Positions 3,380-58,429 of a stretch of DNA of 64,000 nucleotides are shown here, in pieces. The stretch comes from Escherichia coli (GTDB lineage Bacteria > Pseudomonadota > Gammaproteobacteria > Enterobacterales > Enterobacteriaceae): assembly GCF_003334255.1 (NCBI RefSeq), contig NZ_QOWU01000010.1. One strand, given 5' to 3'. The position numbers and the translations under genes were made by a program. Under the pieces are notes generated by a model. That model was given only the letters and a program-made list of their open reading frames with translations, did not search any database and was not told the DNA's origin. How positions within the stretch are numbered: position 1 is the first letter of the stretch; the number at the start of each line of letters is the position of its first letter.

Positions 3380-4772
<1,393 letters not shown>

Positions 4773-10917: not shown

Positions 10918-12087
10918 ATGAAAATTAACTATCCGTTGCTGGCGCTGGCGATTGGCGCGTTTGGTATCGGGACAACGGAGTTCTCGCCAATGGGCTTGTT
11001 GCCCGTCATTGCGCGCGGTGTGGATGTCTCGATTCCCGCTGCCGGAATGTTAATCAGTGCCTATGCAGTTGGCGTAATGGTTGGCGCGCCGCTGATGACG
11101 CTTCTACTTTCTCATCGTGCCCGCCGCAGTGCGTTGATTTTCCTGATGGCAATTTTCACGCTCGGCAACGTACTTTCCGCCATCGCGCCGGATTATATGA
11201 CCCTGATGCTTTCACGCATTTTGACCAGCCTGAATCACGGAGCATTTTTTGGTTTGGGTTCAGTCGTGGCCGCAAGCGTGGTGCCAAAACATAAACAGGC
11301 CAGCGCAGTTGCCACTATGTTTATGGGGTTAACCCTGGCAAATATCGGTGGCGTGCCGGCGGCGACCTGGTTGGGTGAAACCATCGGCTGGCGGATGTCA
11401 TTTCTGGCAACGGCGGGGCTGGGAGTGATTTCAATGGTAAGTCTGTTCTTCTCATTACCTAAAGGTGGTGCAGGGGCACGACCTGAAGTGAAAAAAGAGC
11501 TGGCGGTATTAATGCGTCCGCAGGTGCTGTCTGCATTGCTGACGACGGTACTGGGAGCTGGTGCAATGTTTACTCTCTACACCTATATCTCTCCGGTACT
11601 GCAAAGTATTACCCACGCAACACCGGTGTTCGTCACGGCAATGCTGGTGCTGATTGGTGTCGGATTCTCTATCGGTAACTATCTCGGCGGCAAACTGGCA
11701 GATCGTTCAGTTAACGGCACGTTGAAAGGCTTTTTGTTGTTGTTGATGGTGATTATGCTGGCAATCCCGTTCCTGGCCCGCAATGAGTTCGGCGCAGCTA
11801 TTAGCATGGTGGTGTGGGGCGCAGCAACCTTTGCGGTCGTACCGCCGTTACAGATGCGCGTGATGCGTGTCGCCAGTGAAGCGCCAGGTCTGTCTTCATC
11901 AGTCAATATTGGTGCCTTTAATCTTGGAAATGCGCTGGGAGCAGCTGCTGGTGGTGCGGTAATTTCCGCTGGGCTGGGATACAGCTTTGTGCCGGTGATG
12001 GGAGCGATTGTCGCGGGACTGGCATTATTGCTGGTGTTTATGTCAGCCAGAAAACAACCTGAAACAGTTTGCGTTGCTAACAGCTAA
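10918..12087 (+). CDS. ydhP: YdhP, MFS transporter, 389 aa
   Basis: ORF-track 10918..12087. 12-TM MFS. SD GGTGGAG lies upstream. Confidence 0.93.
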   Translation: MKINYPLLALAIGAFGIGTTEFSPMGLLPVIARGVDVSIPAAGMLISAYAVGVMVGAPLMTLLLSHRARRSALIFLMAIFTLGNVLSAIAPDYMTLMLSRILTSLNHGAFFGLGSVVAASVVPKHKQASAVATMFMGLTLANIGGVPAATWLGETIGWRMSFLATAGLGVISMVSLFFSLPKGGAGARPEVKKELAVLMRPQVLSALLTTVLGAGAMFTLYTYISPVLQSITHATPVFVTAMLVLIGVGFSIGNYLGGKLADRSVNGTLKGFLLLLMVIMLAIPFLARNEFGAAISMVVWGAATFAVVPPLQMRVMRVASEAPGLSSSVNIGAFNLGNALGAAAGGAVISAGLGYSFVPVMGAIVAGLALLLVFMSARKQPETVCVANS

Positions 12088-12097
12088 TTAAACAAAA

Positions 12098-12121
12098 ACG
12101 CAGAAGGATAACCTTCTGCGT
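12098..12121. terminator. Hairpin after ydhP (A-tract before, so a better U-tract on the - strand). Probable bidirectional ydhP/sodB terminator.
   Basis: ACGCAGAAGG-ATAA-CCTTCTGCGT, flanked by AAAAA on the left. Confidence 0.5.
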
Positions 12122-12150
12122 TACAGTTGCTGACAACGTGCGATTTATCT

Positions 12151-12300
12151 TGCCGGATGCGGTGTTAACGACTCATCCGCGTTGACATGAAAAGACGCGT
12201 TAGGCGTCGTATCATGCAGCGCTTGTCGGATGCGGCGAGTGCCTTATCCGACCTACATCGATGATCCGCGTAGGCCTGATAAGCGTAGCGCTTCAGGCAA
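12151..12300. repeat. REP/BIME cluster (three REP-like palindromic units)
   Basis: TGCCGGATGCGG..CATCCGC, GTCGGATGCGGCGAGTGCCTTATCCGACCTAC and inverted GTAGGCCTGATAAGCGTAGCGCTTCAGGCA match the E. coli REP consensus. Confidence 0.85.
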
Positions 12301-12321
12301 TGCTGCATTTGCCATCAGTTA

Positions 12322-12903
12322 TTATGCAGCGAGATTTTTCGCTACGAATTCCCAGTTCACCAGCGCCCAGAAGTGCTCCAGATAGCCAGGACGTGCATTG
12401 CGATAGTCGATGTAATAAGCGTGTTCCCAGACATCAACGGTCAGCAGCGGAGTCGCATCGGTGGTCAGCGGAGTACCCGCGTTAGAGGTTGAAACGATAG
12501 CCAGTTTGCCATCGCTGTTTTTCACCAGCCAGGTCCAGCCAGAACCAAAGTTTTTGATCGCTGCATCAGTAAACTGCGCTTTGAAATCGGCAAAGCTGCC
12601 AAAAGATGCGGCGATAGCTTCAGCGACTTTTCCAGTCGGTTCGCCACCGGCGTTCGGTGCCAGGCAGTTCCAGTAGAAAGTATGGTTCCAGACCTGAGCT
12701 GCGTTGTTGAATACGCCACCTTCAGAGCTGCGAATAATCTCTTCCAGTGATTTACCTTCAAACGCGGTACCTTTAATCAGGTTGTTCAGGTTAGTGACAT
12801 AAGTCTGATGGTGCTTGCCGTAGTGATACTCGATGGTTTCCGCAGAAATGTGCGGTGCCAGAGCATCTTTAGCATATGGTAGTGCAGGTAATTCGAATGA
12901 CAT
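12322..12903 (-). CDS. sodB: Superoxide dismutase [Fe], 193 aa
   Basis: ORF-track 12322..12903. [36 protein letters not shown]... Confidence 0.98.
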
Positions 12904-50240: not shown

Positions 50241-51008
50241 GTGTTTAATTCTGACAACCTGAGACTCGACGGAAAATGCGCCATCATCACAGGTGCGGGT
50301 GCAGGTATTGGTAAAGAAATCGCCATTACATTCGCGACAGCTGGCGCATCTGTGGTGGTCAGTGATATTAACGCCGACGCAGCTAACCATGTTGTAGACG
50401 AAATTCAACAACTGGGTGGTCAGGCATTTGCCTGCCGTTGTGATATTACTTCCGAACAGGAACTCTCTGCACTGGCAGACTTTGCTATCAGTAAGCTGGG
50501 TAAAGTTGATATTCTGGTTAACAACGCCGGTGGCGGTGGACCTAAACCGTTTGATATGCCAATGGCGGATTTTCGCCGTGCTTATGAACTGAATGTGTTT
50601 TCTTTTTTCCATCTGTCACAACTTGTTGCGCCAGAAATGGAAAAAAATGGCGGTGGCGTTATTCTGACCATCACTTCTATGGCGGCAGAAAATAAAAATA
50701 TAAACATGACTTCCTATGCATCATCTAAAGCTGCGGCCAGTCATCTGGTCAGAAATATGGCGTTTGACCTGGGTGAAAAAAATATTCGGGTAAATGGCAT
50801 TGCGCCGGGGGCAATATTAACCGATGCCCTGAAATCCGTTATTACACCAGAAATTGAACAAAAAATGTTACAGCACACGCCGATCAGACGTCTGGGCCAA
50901 CCGCAAGATATTGCTAACGCAGCGCTGTTCCTTTGCTCGCCTGCTGCGAGCTGGGTAAGCGGACAAATTCTCACCGTCTCCGGTGGTGGGGTACAGGAGC
51001 TCAATTAA
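50241..51008 (+). CDS. hdhA: 7-alpha-hydroxysteroid dehydrogenase (SDR), 255 aa, GTG start
   Basis: ORF-track 50241..51008. AGGAGG lies 5 nt upstream. TGAGAGIG cofactor motif and YxxxK. Confidence 0.95.
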   Translation: MFNSDNLRLDGKCAIITGAGAGIGKEIAITFATAGASVVVSDINADAANHVVDEIQQLGGQAFACRCDITSEQELSALADFAISKLGKVDILVNNAGGGGPKPFDMPMADFRRAYELNVFSFFHLSQLVAPEMEKNGGGVILTITSMAAENKNINMTSYASSKAAASHLVRNMAFDLGEKNIRVNGIAPGAILTDALKSVITPEIEQKMLQHTPIRRLGQPQDIANAALFLCSPAASWVSGQILTVSGGGVQELN

Positions 51009-51101
51009 TACACTAACGGACCGGTAAACAACCGTGCGTGTTGTTTACCGGGATAAACTCATCAACGTCTCTGCTAAATAACTGGCAGCCAAATCACGGC
51101 T

Positions 51102-51115
51102 ATTGGTTAACCAAT
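51102..51115. promoter_or_regulatory. Palindrome upstream of uidR (candidate UidR operator)
   Basis: ATTGGTTAACCAAT is a perfect 14-bp palindrome. A near-identical copy lies upstream of uidA. Confidence 0.5.
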
Positions 51116-51228
51116 TTCAGAGTGAAAAGTATACGAATAGAGTGTGCCTTCGCACTATTCAACAGCAATGATAGGCGCTCACCTGACAACGCGGTAAACT
51201 AGTTATTCACGCTAACTATAATGGTTTA

Positions 51229-51819
51229 ATGATGGATAACATGCAGACTGAAGCACAACCGACACGGACCCGGATCCTCAATGCTGCCAGAGAGATTTTT
51301 TCAGAAAATGGATTTCACAGTGCCTCGATGAAAGCCATCTGTAAATCTTGCGCCATTAGTCCCGGGACGCTCTATCACCATTTCATCTCCAAAGAAGCCT
51401 TGATTCAGGCGATTATCTTACAGGACCAGGAGAGGGCGCTGGCCCGTTTCCGGGAACCGATTGAAGGGATTCATTTCGTTGACTATATGGTCGAGTCCAT
51501 TGTCTCTCTCACCCATGAAGCCTTTGGACAACGGGCGCTGGTGGTTGAAATTATGGCGGAAGGGATGCGTAACCCACAGGTCGCCGCCATGCTTAAAAAT
51601 AAGCATATGACGATCACGGAATTTGTTGCCCAGCGGATGCGTGATGCCCAGCAAAAAGGCGAGATAAGCCCAGACATCAACACGGCAATGACTTCACGTT
51701 TACTGCTGGATCTGACCTACGGTGTACTGGCCGATATCGAAGCGGAAGACCTGGCGCGTGAAGCGTCGTTTGCTCAGGGATTACGCGCGATGATTGGCGG
51801 TATCTTAACCGCATCCTGA
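51229..51819 (+). CDS. uidR: UidR (GusR), TetR-family repressor of uidABC, 196 aa
   Basis: ORF-track 51229..51819. TetR HTH ..NGFHSASMKAICKSCAISPGTLYHHF... Confidence 0.95.
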   Translation: MMDNMQTEAQPTRTRILNAAREIFSENGFHSASMKAICKSCAISPGTLYHHFISKEALIQAIILQDQERALARFREPIEGIHFVDYMVESIVSLTHEAFGQRALVVEIMAEGMRNPQVAAMLKNKHMTITEFVAQRMRDAQQKGEISPDINTAMTSRLLLDLTYGVLADIEAEDLAREASFAQGLRAMIGGILTAS

Positions 51820-52149
51820 TTCTCTCTCTTTTTCGGCGGGCTGGTGATAACTGTGCCCGCGTTTCATATCGTAATTTCTCTGTGCAAAAATTATCCTTCC
51901 CGGCTTCGGAGAATTCCCCCCAAAATATTCACTGTAGCCATATGTCATGAGAGTTTATCGTTCCCAATACGCTCGAACGAACGTTCGGTTGCTTATTTTA
52001 TGGCTTCTGTCAACGCTGTTTTAAAGATTAATGCGATCTATATCACGCTGTGGGTATTGCAGTTTTTGGTTTTTTGATCGCGGTGTCAGTTCTTTTTATT
52101 TCCATTTCTCTTCCATGGGTTTCTCACAGATAACTGTGTGCAACACAGA

Positions 52150-55391
<3,242 letters not shown>

Positions 55392-55429
55392 TATTCAATA
55401 AAAATAATCAGAACATCAAAGGTGCAACT

Positions 55430-56695
55430 ATGAGAAAAATAGTGGCCATGGCCGTTATTTGCCTGACGGCTGCCTCTGGCCTTACCTCTGCTTATGCGGC
55501 GCAACTGGCTGACGATGAAGCGGGACTACGCATCAGACTGAAAAACGAATTGCGCAGGGCGGATAAGCCCAGTGCTGGCGCGGGAAGAGATATTTACGCA
55601 TGGGTACAGGGAGGATTGCTCGATTTCAATAGTGGTTATTATTCCAATATTATTGGCGTTGAAGGCGGGGCGTATTATGTTTATAAATTAGGTGCTCGTG
55701 CTGATATGAGTACCCGGTGGTATCTTGATGGTGATAAAAGTTTTGGCTTTGCCCTGGGGGCAGTAAAAATAAAACCCAGTGAAAATAGCCTGCTTAAATT
55801 AGGTCGCTTCGGGACGGATTATAGTTATGGTAGCTTACCTTATCGTATTCCGTTAATGGCTGGCAGTTCGCAACGTACATTACCGACAGTTTCTGAAGGA
55901 GCATTAGGTTATTGGGCTTTAACACCAAATATTGATCTGTGGGGAATGTGGCGTTCACGAGTATTTTTATGGACTGATTCAACAACCGGTATTCGTGATG
56001 AAGGGGTGTATAACAGCCAGACGGGAAAATACGATAAACATCGCGCACGTTCTTTTTTAGCCGCCAGTTGGCATGATGATACCAGTCGCTATTCTCTGGG
56101 GGCATCGGTACAGAAAGATGTTTCCAATCAGATACAAAGTATTCTCGAGAAAAGCATACCGCTCGACCCGAATTATACGTTGAAAGGGGAGTTGCTCGGC
56201 TTTTACGCGCAGCTCGAAGGTTTAAGTCGTAATACCAGCCAGCCCAATGAAACGGCGTTGGTTAGTGGACAATTGACCTGGAATGCGCCGTGGGGAAGTG
56301 TATTTGGCAGTGGTGGTTATTTGCGCCATGCAATGAATGGTGCCGTGGTGGATACCGACATTGGCTATCCCTTTTCATTAAGTCTTGATCGTAACCGTGA
56401 AGGAATGCAGTCCTGGCAATTGGGCGTCAACTATCGTTTAACGCCGCAATTTACGCTGACATTTGCACCGATTGTGACTCGCGGCTATGAATCCAGTAAA
56501 CGAGATGTGCGGATTGAAGGCACGGGTATCTTAGGTGGTATGAACTATCGGGTCAGCGAAGGGCCGTTACAAGGGATGAATTTCTTTCTTGCTGCCGATA
56601 AAGGGCGGGAAAAGCGCGATGGCAGTACGCTGGGCGATCGCCTGAATTACTGGGATGTGAAAATGAGTATTCAGTATGACTTTATGCTGAAGTAA
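55430..56695 (+). CDS. uidC: UidC, outer-membrane glucuronide porin (OprD-like), 421 aa
   Basis: ORF-track 55430..56695. Signal peptide. C-terminal ..YDFMLK. Confidence 0.95.
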   Translation: MRKIVAMAVICLTAASGLTSAYAAQLADDEAGLRIRLKNELRRADKPSAGAGRDIYAWVQGGLLDFNSGYYSNIIGVEGGAYYVYKLGARADMSTRWYLDGDKSFGFALGAVKIKPSENSLLKLGRFGTDYSYGSLPYRIPLMAGSSQRTLPTVSEGALGYWALTPNIDLWGMWRSRVFLWTDSTTGIRDEGVYNSQTGKYDKHRARSFLAASWHDDTSRYSLGASVQKDVSNQIQSILEKSIPLDPNYTLKGELLGFYAQLEGLSRNTSQPNETALVSGQLTWNAPWGSVFGSGGYLRHAMNGAVVDTDIGYPFSLSLDRNREGMQSWQLGVNYRLTPQFTLTFAPIVTRGYESSKRDVRIEGTGILGGMNYRVSEGPLQGMNFFLAADKGREKRDGSTLGDRLNYWDVKMSIQYDFMLK

Positions 56696-56700
56696 AAAAT

Positions 56701-56729
56701 AACGCCGGAGAGAAAAATCTCCGGCGTTT
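56701..56729 (+). terminator. Hairpin terminator after uidC
   Basis: AACGCCGGAGA-GAAAAA-TCTCCGGCGTT followed by TCAG. Confidence 0.6.
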
Positions 56730-56758
56730 CAGATTGTTGACAAAGTGCGCGTTTTTTA

Positions 56759-56857
56759 TGCCGGATGCGGCGTAAACGCCTTATCCAGCCTACAAAAACT
56801 CATAAATTCAAAGTGTTGCAGGAAAAGGTAGGCCTGATAAGCGTAGCGCATCAGGCA
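56759..56857. repeat. BIME: two inverted REP units
   Basis: TGCCGGATGCGGCGTAAACGCCTTATCCAGCCTAC (56759-56793) and inverted GTAGGCCTGATAAGCGTAGCGCATCAGGCA (56828-56857). Confidence 0.88.
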
Positions 56858-56878
56858 ATCTCTGGTTTGTTTTCAGAT

Positions 56879-56911
56879 GAAAACGCCGGAGTGAAAATTC
56901 TCCGGCGTTTT
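56879..56911 (-). terminator. Intrinsic terminator downstream of ydgA
   Basis: - strand AAAACGCCGGAGA-ATTTTCA-CTCCGGCGTTTT followed by CATCTG. Confidence 0.7.
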
Positions 56912-56920
56912 GGCCGTGAA

Positions 56921-58429
56921 TTACTGCTGCGGAATTGCCGGTACAGCCGGAACGTTAAGAGCTGGCATCGCAAACATGCCAACAAAATCTTCTAACGACA
57001 TTTTCTGCCCATTTAACGTTATCTGACCGTTAGCATATTGCAGGCTGGTGGTGATGGTATTGTCCTGCAAGGTGGTCAGACGGAACATCTGCCCCATTGC
57101 TGATGCACCTTCAACTTGCTGTTTCGCCAGTTTTTTCGCTTGATCTTCCTGATAACCTTCCAGCTTCGCTACCTGAGTCATAAACTCAGTTGCCATATCC
57201 ACCGGAATGGTCAGTTTCGCATCCAGAGATTTAACCGAACGATCTACTTCCTGCGCCAGCGTTTGCGGCGCTTCTTTAGTCGTTGCCGGATCTTTCAGGA
57301 ACAGCGACAGATTCAGGGCACTTTCACCCTGACTGTTTTTCCAGCTTAGCGGCGCGATAGTAATCACCGGATCGCCTTTCAGCATCAGCGGCAGGGCGCT
57401 AAAGAAGGCTTCCGTCACTTTCTCCTGATAAAGTTCGGGGTTGTTGGCAATTTCTGGCTGTGCCAGCAGCGCCTGAGTTTGCGCGTTATATTGCTGGCTA
57501 AACTGATGCCAGGCTTCACCATCAATCTGGCCGACTTTTAAAGTCAGCTTGCCGCTGCCCAGATCCTGATTCTGTACCTTCAGGCTGTTTAGCGAGTAAT
57601 CCAGTTGGCTATTGATCGTTTTACCGTCATTGACCAGATCCGATTTACCGCTGATCTCCATGCCTTCCAGCAGTGCCAGTTCTTTGCCTTCCACTGAAAT
57701 GGTCATTTTTTCCAGTGACAGTTTTTGATTTCCTACACGCTCACCAAAACTTGCCAGCGTGCTGGAACCGTCGGTTTTCAGATTATTAAAGGTCAACTGC
57801 ACTTTCTGGTTGTATTCGTTAACTGCGTCTATCCGACCACTTTGCGCCTCCCCGGAAAGGGAGATGGCTTTGCCGTCTCTGTCAGCATTTAACTGGAACT
57901 CGCCGCCGCTAAAGGCGACTTTTTCATCCTTTTGCTCGTAATTCAGTGGCTTGAGCGAAATATCGGAACTGGAATCACCGCTGTAACCAATGCGCGAGTT
58001 AATCTCAAAAGGCGTTTCACCTTTTGCCATATCAAACAGTGGTTTGCTTACTTCGTTATTAACCAGCGTGGTTTGAATTGATGCCATCGACGGGATCAGG
58101 TTCAGTTTTTTAAGCTGGGCAAGCGGGAAGGGACCATGATCAACCGATTCGTTGAAGATGACGCTCTGACCGCTTTTAATCCACGGATTTTCTTTCCCGG
58201 CAATGGGTTTCACCAACAGTTGCAACTGGCTGCTGAATACGCCGCGATGATAGTTTTGATAACTCACTTCCAGGTTGGATTCAGGAGCTGTCAGTTTGAG
58301 TTGCGCGTTCGCCTGCGCGACCATGTCTTCGAGATGGGTTTCAATCTTCTTGCCTGTATACCATGCGCCGCCTGTCCAGACTACGCCTAGCGCAACAATG
58401 ACGCCTACCGCTACCAGCGATTTATTCAT
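56921..58429 (-). CDS. ydgA: YdgA, DUF945 GapA-like exported protein, 502 aa
   Basis: ORF-track 56921..58429. N-terminal signal/anchor MNKSLVAVGVIVALGVVWTGGAWY... Confidence 0.93.
   Translation of the reverse strand: MNKSLVAVGVIVALGVVWTGGAWYTGKKIETHLEDMVAQANAQLKLTAPESNLEVSYQNYHRGVFSSQLQLLVKPIAGKENPWIKSGQSVIFNESVDHGPFPLAQLKKLNLIPSMASIQTTLVNNEVSKPLFDMAKGETPFEINSRIGYSGDSSSDISLKPLNYEQKDEKVAFSGGEFQLNADRDGKAISLSGEAQSGRIDAVNEYNQKVQLTFNNLKTDGSSTLASFGERVGNQKLSLEKMTISVEGKELALLEGMEISGKSDLVNDGKTINSQLDYSLNSLKVQNQDLGSGKLTLKVGQIDGEAWHQFSQQYNAQTQALLAQPEIANNPELYQEKVTEAFFSALPLMLKGDPVITIAPLSWKNSQGESALNLSLFLKDPATTKEAPQTLAQEVDRSVKSLDAKLTIPVDMATEFMTQVAKLEGYQEDQAKKLAKQQVEGASAMGQMFRLTTLQDNTITTSLQYANGQITLNGQKMSLEDFVGMFAMPALNVPAVPAIPQQ

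What the first reader, a model, noticed from the sequence alone, without database searches (positions are those of the whole stretch)
56701..56910. Near-identical 29-bp terminator hairpins in direct repeat flanking the uidC-ydgA REP pair
AACGCCGGAGAGAAAAATCTCCGGCGTTT (56701-56729) and AACGCCGGAGTGAAAATTCTCCGGCGTTT (56882-56910) differ at 2 positions. They bracket a BIME made of two inverted REPs (56759-56793 and 56828-56857). A TTTCAGAT motif follows the first copy and precedes the second. One copy serves as the uidC terminator and the other, read on the - strand, as the ydgA terminator. The arrangement looks like a duplication of an ancestral shared bidirectional terminator associated with REP/BIME insertion.
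Basis: seen in the sequence. Interest (0 to 1): 0.25.

Follow-up and report, generated by a model that had tools for sequence, protein, structure and literature searches.

The report
Terminator hairpin duplicated by BIME-1 insertion
A 152-bp repeated element (BIME-1) sits in the shared transcription terminator between the E. coli genes uidC and ydgA and is flanked by two copies of the whole terminator hairpin; the same footprint at other BIME-1 sites gives a clue to how these abundant repeats move.

Summary
The 29-nt hairpins at 56701-56729 and 56882-56910 match at 27/29 and are 181 bp apart. The 152 bp between them is one complete BIME-1: end motif, REP-Y, L linker, REP-Z1, end motif.

About a third of 5,426 complete E. 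coli genomes carry this allele (1,751). Sampled genomes without it have a 44-bp spacer with one hairpin and no BIME, exactly 181 bp shorter.

The hairpin-element-hairpin layout recurs at other BIME-1 loci:
- tkt-prohibitin: perfect 22-bp copies.
- rlmC-artJ: 18 bp.
- An acnB-downstream locus in another enterobacterium: 24 bp.
- barA-gudD: one copy decayed.

Single-hairpin empty alleles exist at the uidC-ydgA, tkt and artJ loci. The duplication therefore looks like a structure-defined target duplication equal to the whole palindrome.

At uidC-ydgA the insertion is old, being orthologous in E. whittamii with remnants in two other lineages. Many E. coli empty sites are therefore probably precise excisions. 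Three genomes carry exactly the excision product predicted from the K-12 haplotype.

The enzyme is unknown. I found no published description of the hairpin duplication, but the key 1997 paper was not readable here.

The parts
55430..56695 (+). uidC (glucuronide porin) coding sequence; stop codon TAA at 56693-56695
   Evidence: ORF list; RefSeq annotation of the 100% identical K-12 record
56701..56729 (.). Hairpin copy 1 (11-bp stem, loop GAAAAA), the left copy of the duplicated terminator palindrome. Read on the minus strand it is followed by the original U tract (UUAUUUUUUAC). Read on the plus strand it is followed by UUUC, which runs into the element.
56729..56759 (+). Left end motif of the BIME-1 (TCAGATTGTTGACAAAGTGCGCGTTTTTTAT), an extra-REP motif and terminal inverted repeat. 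It has 16-25 places per E. coli genome.
56760..56793 (+). REP / palindromic unit of Y type (GCCGGATGCGGCGTAAACGCCTTATCCAGCCTAC)
   Evidence: alignment with other BIME-1 copies; sub-threshold Rfam naRNA4 (REP-derived) hit
56794..56827 (+). L linker of the BIME-1, with an IHF-consensus-like motif ATTCAAAGTGTTG at 56806-56818 (1 mismatch)
   Evidence: The motif alone is not above chance. IHF binding of the L linker comes from the literature (PMC3333891).
56828..56857 (-). REP / palindromic unit of Z1 type, inverted relative to Y (GTAGGCCTGATAAGCGTAGCGCATCAGGCA on the plus strand)
56858..56880 (+). Right end motif of the BIME-1 (ATCTCTGGTTTGTTTTCAGATGA), a diverged copy of the consensus AGTTTTGCGTTTGTCATCAGTCTC and the inverted repeat of the left end
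56882..56910 (.). Hairpin copy 2 (12-bp stem counting the flanking A/T, loop TGAAAATT), the right copy of the duplicated palindrome. It is followed on the plus strand by the original UUUUGG and on the minus strand by UUUUCAUCUG from the element.
56921..58429 (-). ydgA coding sequence, convergent with uidC

Best explanation
The ancestral uidC-ydgA spacer held one palindromic, bidirectional intrinsic-terminator hairpin. A complete BIME-1 element of about 152 bp integrated at the foot of that hairpin. The element is end motif, REP-Y, L linker, REP-Z1, end motif, and it is itself a long imperfect palindrome. The joints on the two strands were staggered by the length of the whole palindrome, so repair synthesis left a full copy of the hairpin on each side (H-E-H). 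This is a target-site duplication whose length is set by the target's secondary structure (18-31 bp, depending on the locus) rather than by a fixed stagger.

The geometry fits strand transfer on the same side of the stem-loop on each strand. That could happen across the base of an extruded cruciform or at two single-stranded hairpins.

Afterwards the two hairpin copies, as direct repeats around a palindrome, allow three kinds of event: precise loss of the element plus one copy, tandem amplification, and allele shuffling by recombination within the stems.

Shown here: the anatomy, the matching empty and filled alleles, recurrence at other loci, the age of the insertion, and the existence of the predicted excision products. 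Inferred: the staggered, structure-directed joining and the slippage route of loss. Unknown: the enzyme. The HUH transposase RayT is the obvious candidate, but nothing here ties it to the element's ends.

Functional consequence (inferred): each convergent gene keeps a proximal hairpin with a shortened U tract and gains a distal hairpin with the original U tract. Read-through transcripts would therefore carry the BIME-1 in their 3' UTR.
For: Anatomy:
- The hairpin copies match 27/29 in direct order, with the loops in direct register.
- The 152 bp between them aligns end to end with other BIME-1 copies (87.5% to the consensus).

Empty and filled alleles:
- Among E. coli genomes, 1,751 of 5,426 are filled.
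- Sampled others have a 44-bp spacer equal to the filled allele minus exactly 181 bp, with one hairpin carrying the left flank of copy 1 and the right flank of copy 2.

The same H-E-H at other loci:
- tkt-prohibitin: perfect 22/22 copies in NCTC86, a single hairpin in CUVET21-1780, and H-E-H-E-H in strain A_5.
- rlmC-artJ: 18-bp copies, with a single hairpin in ST131.
- acnB-downstream locus: 24-bp copies with an asymmetric loop that is clearly in direct order.
- barA-gudD: one copy decayed.
- 10 of 13 distinct BIME-1 loci have a stable hairpin abutting at least one end.

Age of the insertion:
- E. whittamii carries an orthologous filled allele sharing locus-specific variants.
- Locus L008 keeps hairpin 2 plus the right half of the element after a uidABC deletion.
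- E. albertii keeps a 15/17 in-register match to the element's right terminus.

Loss of the element:
- Three genomes carry exactly the predicted deletion product on a K-12-type haplotype that is 99.7-99.9% identical over 3 kb on each side.

Literature:
- BIME-1 presence/absence polymorphism is known (PMC1187871).
- The dissemination mechanism is stated to be unknown (PMC8266576).
Against: Not every BIME-1 is flanked by two hairpins. dacB-obgE and one artJ allele are H-E with no second copy and a few bases missing. fepA-entD has no hairpin at all. Duplication is therefore a frequent outcome, not an obligatory one.

Only 13 loci were sampled, and they were found with a left-end pattern, which could bias the set.

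The K-12 rayT gene is flanked by Y/Z2 REPs without the BIME-1 end motifs. The base before the element is C, as RayT's C^T rule requires, in only 7 of 16 junctions, which is not significant.

At uidC-ydgA the two loop differences may reflect recombination between diverged alleles rather than decay after duplication. Z1322 has perfect copies on an HS-type flank.

The E. albertii remnant is short and is not significant in an unconstrained alignment (p about 0.05).
Confidence: 0.78

Rival explanations
1. Duplication came first and insertion second. The terminator hairpin was tandemly duplicated by slippage for reasons unrelated to the BIME, for example selection for separate terminators, and a BIME-1 later landed between the two copies.
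For: Hairpins are evidently preferred BIME-1 neighbours, so a landing next to a hairpin is expected. Tandem arrays do form at such sites (A_5).
Against: No H-H allele without the element was seen at uidC-ydgA, tkt or artJ in the sampled alleles. The element lies exactly between the copies with no spare nucleotide at five loci. The duplication length equals the palindrome in each case.
Confidence: 0.05
2. Palindrome extension. The BIME-1 is a long palindrome, and intrastrand template switching copied the hairpin from one flank to the other in inverted orientation. Because the stems are self-complementary, this would merely look like a direct repeat.
For: The element's two arms are inverted repeats and the whole 225-nt spacer folds strongly (-49.5 kcal/mol, z -6.6). 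A loop inversion with an extended palindrome does occur in one lineage (L010).
Against: The loops are in direct, not inverted, register. AGAAAAAT versus TGAAAATT matches 6/8 direct and 1/8 inverted. The asymmetric loop CCCAAAA at the acnB locus is direct. The outer flanks of the two copies are not inverted copies of each other.
Confidence: 0.03
3. The element never moved into an E. coli site. The long allele is simply the ancestral Escherichia state, the short allele is a deletion between fortuitously similar terminators of uidC and ydgA, and the similarity of the two hairpins is maintained by gene conversion.
For: The filled state is old (E. whittamii, L008 and E. albertii remnants). Precise deletion products exist. 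Recombination within the stems occurs (Z1322).
Against: This explains the direction of recent changes but not why two terminators of unrelated genes share stem, loop and length. It also does not explain why the same layout, with locus-specific hairpins and perfect 22-bp copies, occurs at tkt and elsewhere with matching single-hairpin alleles. It agrees with the best explanation on recent history and differs only on the origin.
Confidence: 0.1
4. The two hairpins are independently evolved terminators, similar by convergence, and the repeat is a coincidence.
For: Intrinsic terminators share a generic GC-stem and T-tract design.
Against: The identity is 27/29 including the loop, and 29/29 in Z1322. 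There are 0 chance matches in shuffles. The length difference to the empty allele is exactly 181 bp.
Confidence: 0.01

Closest known systems
BIME-1 (RIP/RIB) elements of E. coli: Y and Z1 palindromic units separated by the L linker, about 140 bp, present or absent between strains
   Same: It has the same composition, order and size. It is extragenic between convergent genes. It shows presence/absence polymorphism of the whole element (PMC1187871, citing Bachellier et al. 1997; PMC3333891).
   Different: The literature I could read describes BIME-1 by its REPs and linker and states that REPs lack MITE signatures (PMC3184786). Here the unit has conserved terminal inverted repeats about 30 bp outside the REPs, and at 5 of 13 sampled loci it is flanked by a duplication of a whole hairpin.
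REPIN/RAYT systems (REP doublets thought to be mobilised by the HUH Y1 transposase RayT/TnpA-REP)
   Same: There are two inverted REPs forming a long hairpin. rayT is present in K-12. The copy number is low and the elements are old, vertically inherited and slowly turning over. RayT cleaves ssDNA at C^T near a REP (PMC3333891).
   Different: IS200/IS605-type transposition makes no target duplication. The BIME-1 end motifs are absent from the rayT locus. C^T at the junctions is not enriched (7 of 16).
MITEs with terminal inverted repeats and target-site duplications; precise excision of Tn10/Tn5 by slippage between target duplications, stimulated by the inverted repeats (own knowledge)
   Same: It has terminal inverted repeats, flanking direct repeats, empty and filled sites, scarless loss, and tandem amplification.
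   Different: The target duplication is not a fixed length. It is 18-31 bp and coincides with the target's own palindrome. No cognate transposase with matching inverted repeats was identified.
Bacterial group IIC introns, which insert just downstream of intrinsic-terminator stem-loops (PMC1702495)
   Same: The target is chosen by structure: the foot of a terminator hairpin, regardless of its sequence.
   Different: Those are retroelements with a ribozyme and reverse transcriptase, they insert on one side only, and they do not duplicate the hairpin.

Membership tests
BIME-1 | One Y and one Z1 palindromic unit in inverted orientation | tested here: met
   56760-56793 (Y) and 56828-56857 (Z1) align with the corresponding units of the dacB, tkt, barA, fepA and artJ copies.
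BIME-1 | Long, conserved L linker carrying an IHF site | tested here: inconclusive
   The linker at 56794-56827 aligns with other L linkers. The IHF-like motif at 56806-56818 has 1 mismatch, and such matches are not above chance in the window (45 found against 55.6 expected). Binding was not testable.
BIME-1 | Single unit of about 140-150 bp, extragenic, polymorphic as a whole between strains | tested here: met
   The unit is 152 bp in the uidC-ydgA spacer. It is present in 1,751 of 5,426 genomes and precisely absent in sampled others.
Intrinsic (Rho-independent) terminator, bidirectional | GC-rich stem-loop followed by a U tract on the transcribed strand, with an A tract upstream for the opposite strand | tested here: inconclusive
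   The stems are strong. The single hairpin of the empty allele has an A tract upstream and TTTT downstream. In the filled allele only hairpin 1 on the minus strand passes the scan. The proximal copies have UUUC (uidC) and UUUUC (ydgA). No 3'-end data were obtainable.
MITE-like transposable element | Terminal inverted repeats | tested here: met
   The left end TCAGATTGTTGACAAA matches the reverse complement of the right end, TGAGACTGATGACAAA, and this is conserved across loci.
MITE-like transposable element | Target-site duplication with a matching empty site | tested here: met
   uidC-ydgA (29 bp), tkt (22 bp, perfect) and artJ (18 bp) each have single-hairpin empty alleles. The length is variable and equals the palindrome, which is atypical.
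MITE-like transposable element | A cognate transposase whose element carries the same ends | tested here: not met
   The rayT locus of K-12 lacks the end motifs. No other candidate was searched exhaustively.
REPIN mobilised by RayT | REP doublet in inverted orientation, with rayT in the genome | tested here: met
   The Y and Z1 doublet is present, and rayT is annotated in K-12.
REPIN mobilised by RayT | Junctions at RayT cleavage sites (C^T) and RayT-dependent movement | tested here: inconclusive
   The base 5' of the element is C in 7 of 16 junctions, and it is not C at uidC-ydgA (G^T). RayT dependence is not testable with these tools.

The most novel reading that the evidence does not exclude
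BIME-1 elements integrate at the foot of perfect stem-loops, mostly bidirectional intrinsic terminators. In doing so they duplicate the entire palindrome, giving a variable-length, structure-defined target duplication. This would be the first sequence footprint of how REP/BIME elements insert. It implies symmetric strand transfer beside the hairpin on both strands, either on a cruciform or on two ssDNA hairpins. It would also partly explain why REP-type elements accumulate between convergent genes and inside bidirectional terminators.
Probability: 0.4. Interest if true: 0.7.

Novelty: new variant of a known kind. Interest (0 to 1): 0.48.

Why it matters
REP/BIME sequences are the most abundant repeats in E. 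coli, and how they spread is still described as unknown (PMC8266576, 2021). A reproducible insertion footprint, the whole terminator hairpin duplicated on both sides with matching empty sites, turns that question into experiments:
- Offer a bidirectional terminator as a target.
- Test RayT or other enzymes on hairpin feet.
- Measure excision between the hairpin copies.

It also explains part of the enrichment of REPs between convergent genes and within predicted bidirectional terminators (bioRxiv 10.64898/2026.03.23.713779). It further predicts altered 3' ends for the flanking genes in filled versus empty strains.

For the locus itself the result is modest: a known type of repeat at a known place in K-12.

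Tried and rejected
- The K-12 rayT locus was fetched to see whether the BIME-1 end motifs flank the transposase gene. They do not; only Y/Z2 REPs are there. One earlier fetch hit the wrong region because the record has a different origin.
- C^T, the RayT cleavage dinucleotide, was examined at the junctions. It is present at both ends of the tkt, artJ and acnB copies but absent at uidC-ydgA, and overall it is 7 of 16, so it cannot be used as evidence.
- An unconstrained local alignment of the E. albertii spacer to BIME-1 was not significant. Only the in-register terminal match is informative.
- Term-seq supplements for the ydgA and uidC 3' ends are not held.
- Rfam gave only a sub-threshold REP-derived hit (naRNA4, 37 bits against a 59.5 gathering score).
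- The IHF consensus scan was uninformative.
- Literature searches for a description of hairpin or target duplication at BIME/REPIN insertions found none. Bachellier et al. 1997 (PMC1207841) could not be opened.
- Palindrome extension, convergence and duplication-first scenarios were considered and rejected; see the rival explanations.

Full report
**1. The observation**

Reading 56401-57200 and running the repeat finder confirm two 29-nt copies:
- AACGCCGGAGAGAAAAATCTCCGGCGTTT at 56701-56729.
- AACGCCGGAGTGAAAATTCTCCGGCGTTT at 56882-56910.

They are 27/29 identical. Both differences are in the loop, and the start-to-start spacing is 181. The pattern ACGCCGGAG-N(4-12)-CTCCGGCGT occurs nowhere else in the 64-kb window, and 0 matches are expected in shuffles.

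Each copy folds into an 11-12 bp stem on either strand (-20.2 to -23.2 kcal/mol; z -4.7 to -6.2).

The copies lie between two convergent ORFs: 55430..56695 (+, 421 aa) and 56921..58429 (-, 502 aa). RefSeq annotates these as uidC and ydgA in K-12 MG1655, to which this stretch is 100% identical.

**2. What lies between the hairpins**

The 41 nt from 56725 to 56765 lie mostly outside the REP. They have 16-25 places per genome in all 5,426 complete E. coli genomes.

I fetched four other places: dacB-obgE, tkt-prohibitin, barA-gudD and fepA-entD. One metagenome scan with the left-end pattern added more. Together they show a conserved unit of about 153 bp:

TCAGATTGTTGACAAAGTGCGCGTTGTTTAT - REP Y - L linker - REP Z1 - AGTTTTGCGTTTGTCATCAGTCTC

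The two ends are inverted repeats of one another. The window's copy (56729-56880) is 87.5% identical to this consensus over 144 nt.

This is a BIME-1 as described in the literature: Y plus Z1 with a long L linker, about 140 bp, in single copy (PMC1187871; PMC3333891).

The right end is somewhat diverged. It is not a target duplication. The element fills the space between the hairpins exactly.

**3. Empty and filled alleles**

A 501-nt query across the spacer covers at least 80% in 1,751 of 5,426 genomes.

In the sampled remainder the spacer is 44 bp instead of 225 bp, exactly 181 bp shorter. These are HS, O157:H7 Z1814, EC20, MS20657 and MLI114. Their spacer contains one hairpin that carries the left flank of copy 1 and the right flank of copy 2.

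**4. The same footprint elsewhere**

I recovered 13 distinct BIME-1 loci. Four have a clear hairpin-element-hairpin (H-E-H) layout, each with its own locus-specific hairpin:

| Locus | Duplicated hairpin |
|---|---|
| uidC-ydgA | 29 bp |
| tkt-prohibitin | AAGGGCCGCGAAAGCGGCCCTT, 22 bp |
| rlmC-artJ | AAGCCGC-N4-GCGGCTT, 18 bp |
| acnB-downstream (another enterobacterium) | AGCCACT(C/T)CCCAAAAGAAGTGGCT, 24 bp |

The loop at the acnB locus is asymmetric and plainly in direct order. barA-gudD has an intact right hairpin and a decayed left copy (16 of 26 positions, by eye).

At the tkt locus three allele types exist:
- Strain NCTC86 has perfect 22/22 copies.
- CUVET21-1780 has the single hairpin.
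- Strain A_5 has H-E-H-E-H.

At rlmC-artJ an ST131 strain has the single hairpin.

In every case the duplicated segment coincides, within 1-2 nt, with the complete inverted repeat, including its closing A/T pairs. The duplication length therefore varies from 18 to 31 bp with the target's structure.

Ten of the 13 loci have a stable hairpin abutting at least one end. Some have it on one side only:
- dacB-obgE, whose empty allele shows that no second copy exists and that a few bases are missing.
- An artJ allele in GPEC1201.
- The ydhP-sodB spacer in this same window.

fepA-entD has no hairpin at all.

**5. History of the uidC-ydgA site**

ydgA loci from other species were obtained and read.

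- E. whittamii (92% identical overall) has a filled allele. Its BIME-1 shares locus-specific variants with K-12, namely CAGCCTAC in the Y unit, TCATAAATTC in the L linker and the ATGAA terminus. The insertion is therefore orthologous and predates that split.
- Locus L008 (record title "E. coli SCPM-O-B-8794", 92% identical). It keeps hairpin 2 and the right half of the element. It then jumps to uidR, which indicates a uidABC deletion ending in the centre of the BIME.
- E. albertii lacks uidRABC. Next to its hairpin it keeps TTGTCATCAGCCTTAA, a 15/17 in-register match to the element's right terminus. An unconstrained alignment of this spacer is not significant.
- E. ruysiae and Escherichia sp. 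E1V33 are empty. MOD1-EC7003 has a single hairpin with an inverted loop beside a uidC remnant.

The filled state is thus probably ancestral for much of the genus, and many empty sites are secondary.

Direct support for loss comes from a synthetic query representing the precise deletion product of the K-12 haplotype. It finds perfect or near-perfect single-piece matches in only 3 of 5,426 genomes: H9Ecoli, Z1323PEC0010 and 1919D62. Their flanks are 99.7-99.9% identical to the window over 3 kb on each side. Sampled genomes with that ydgA flank are otherwise filled.

Strain Z1322HEC0009 has perfect 29/29 hairpin copies joined to an HS-type ydgA flank. This shows that recombination within the stems also shuffles alleles. 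The two loop differences in K-12 may therefore come from such an exchange rather than from decay.

**6. Mechanism**

The facts that need explaining are these:
- The element abuts the foot of the hairpin on both sides.
- The duplication is direct, as the loops show. This excludes palindrome extension.
- The duplication length equals the palindrome.
- Empty sites are scarless.

The simplest geometry is joining of the element to each target strand on the same side of its own stem-loop. This is equivalent to a staggered cut across the base of an extruded cruciform. Fill-in across the single-stranded hairpins would follow. The final sequence cannot tell a 5' stagger (DDE-like) from a 3' stagger (HUH-like).

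RayT is the obvious candidate, since it cleaves ssDNA at C^T near a REP and re-joins it (PMC3333891). However:
- The K-12 rayT gene is flanked by Y/Z2 REPs without the BIME-1 end motifs.
- C precedes the element at only 7 of 16 junctions, and not at uidC-ydgA.

The enzyme is therefore open.

Loss by slipped mispairing between direct repeats around a palindrome is well established for Tn10/Tn5 precise excision (own knowledge). It fits both the rare excision products and the A_5 tandem array.

**7. Function**

In the empty allele one hairpin has an A tract upstream and TTTT downstream, which is the layout of a bidirectional terminator.

In the filled allele the gene-proximal copies are followed by UUUC (uidC) and UUUUCAUC (ydgA). 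The original tails now follow the distal copies: UUUUGG on the plus strand and UUAUUUUUUAC on the minus strand. The scan flags only hairpin 1 on the minus strand.

Read-through to the distal copy would put the BIME-1 into the 3' UTR. No 3'-end data could be retrieved.

**8. Comparison and novelty**

The element is a member of BIME-1 (see the membership table), and its whole-element polymorphism is known.

The papers I could read do not mention a hairpin or target duplication. These include the main mechanistic papers PMC3333891 and PMC8266576, the REPIN papers and the Delihas review. [quoted passage not shown] Bachellier et al. 1997, who sequenced BIME-1 empty sites, could not be read, so prior description cannot be excluded.

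Structure-directed targeting of terminator feet is known for group IIC introns (PMC1702495), but those do not duplicate the hairpin.

I therefore rate the finding as a new variant of a known kind, with moderate interest. The locus itself is ordinary. The recurrent footprint is a useful and testable clue.

Noticed in passing
window 12096-12321: A second BIME with the same kind of end motifs lies between the ORFs that by map position are ydhP (10918..12087, +) and sodB (12322..12903, -). The terminator-like hairpin AAACGCAGAAGGATAACCTTCTGCGTT (12096-12122) is directly abutted by a diverged left end motif (ACAGTTGCTGACAACGTGCG). An atypical three-REP array follows. The right end motif (TTTGCCATCAGT) runs into the sodB stop codon. 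The hairpin is on one side only.
   Followed up: partly
L211 (E. coli A_5, tkt-prohibitin spacer) 390-830: There is a tandem array hairpin-BIME-hairpin-BIME-hairpin. The three hairpins are identical and the two BIME-1 copies differ at three positions. This looks like unequal exchange between the hairpin repeats, the reciprocal of excision.
   Followed up: partly
L010 (Escherichia sp. MOD1-EC7003) about 4007-4140: The ydgA hairpin has its loop inverted relative to all other Escherichia, and the palindrome is extended (CCAAAACGCCGGAG...CTCCGGCGTTTTGG). It sits directly next to an 83-bp uidC remnant. This suggests a template-switch event associated with the deletion of uidA, uidB and most of uidC.
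   Followed up: no
L008, L010, L011 versus window 51000-56900: uid genes have been lost at least three times with different end points. In L008, uidABC is deleted from the centre of the BIME-1 to just downstream of uidR (uidR retained). In L010, uidA, uidB and most of uidC are deleted, from uidC to the uidR-uidA spacer. In E. albertii, uidR to uidC is absent. The ydgA 3' end also exists as two diverged haplotypes in E. coli (about 2% divergence over ydgA, against 0.1% on the uidC side in HS).
   Followed up: partly
L013 versus L014 (Citrobacter amalonaticus P55 and ku-bf3), downstream of ydgA: Strain P55 has a tandem BIME with related end motifs between the ydgA stop codon and a hairpin. Strain ku-bf3 has only a hairpin there. 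This appears to be an independent BIME insertion at the equivalent terminator in another genus.
   Followed up: no
L213 (E. coli GPEC1201) and L214 (O55:H7 TB182A), artJ 3' region: GPEC1201 carries a diverged BIME-1 (86% identical) with the hairpin on the rlmC side only, and 8 bp (TCTGAATC) are missing. In O55:H7 the neighbour of artJ is a sulfatase gene with a different hairpin. This spacer has several unrelated alleles.
   Followed up: no
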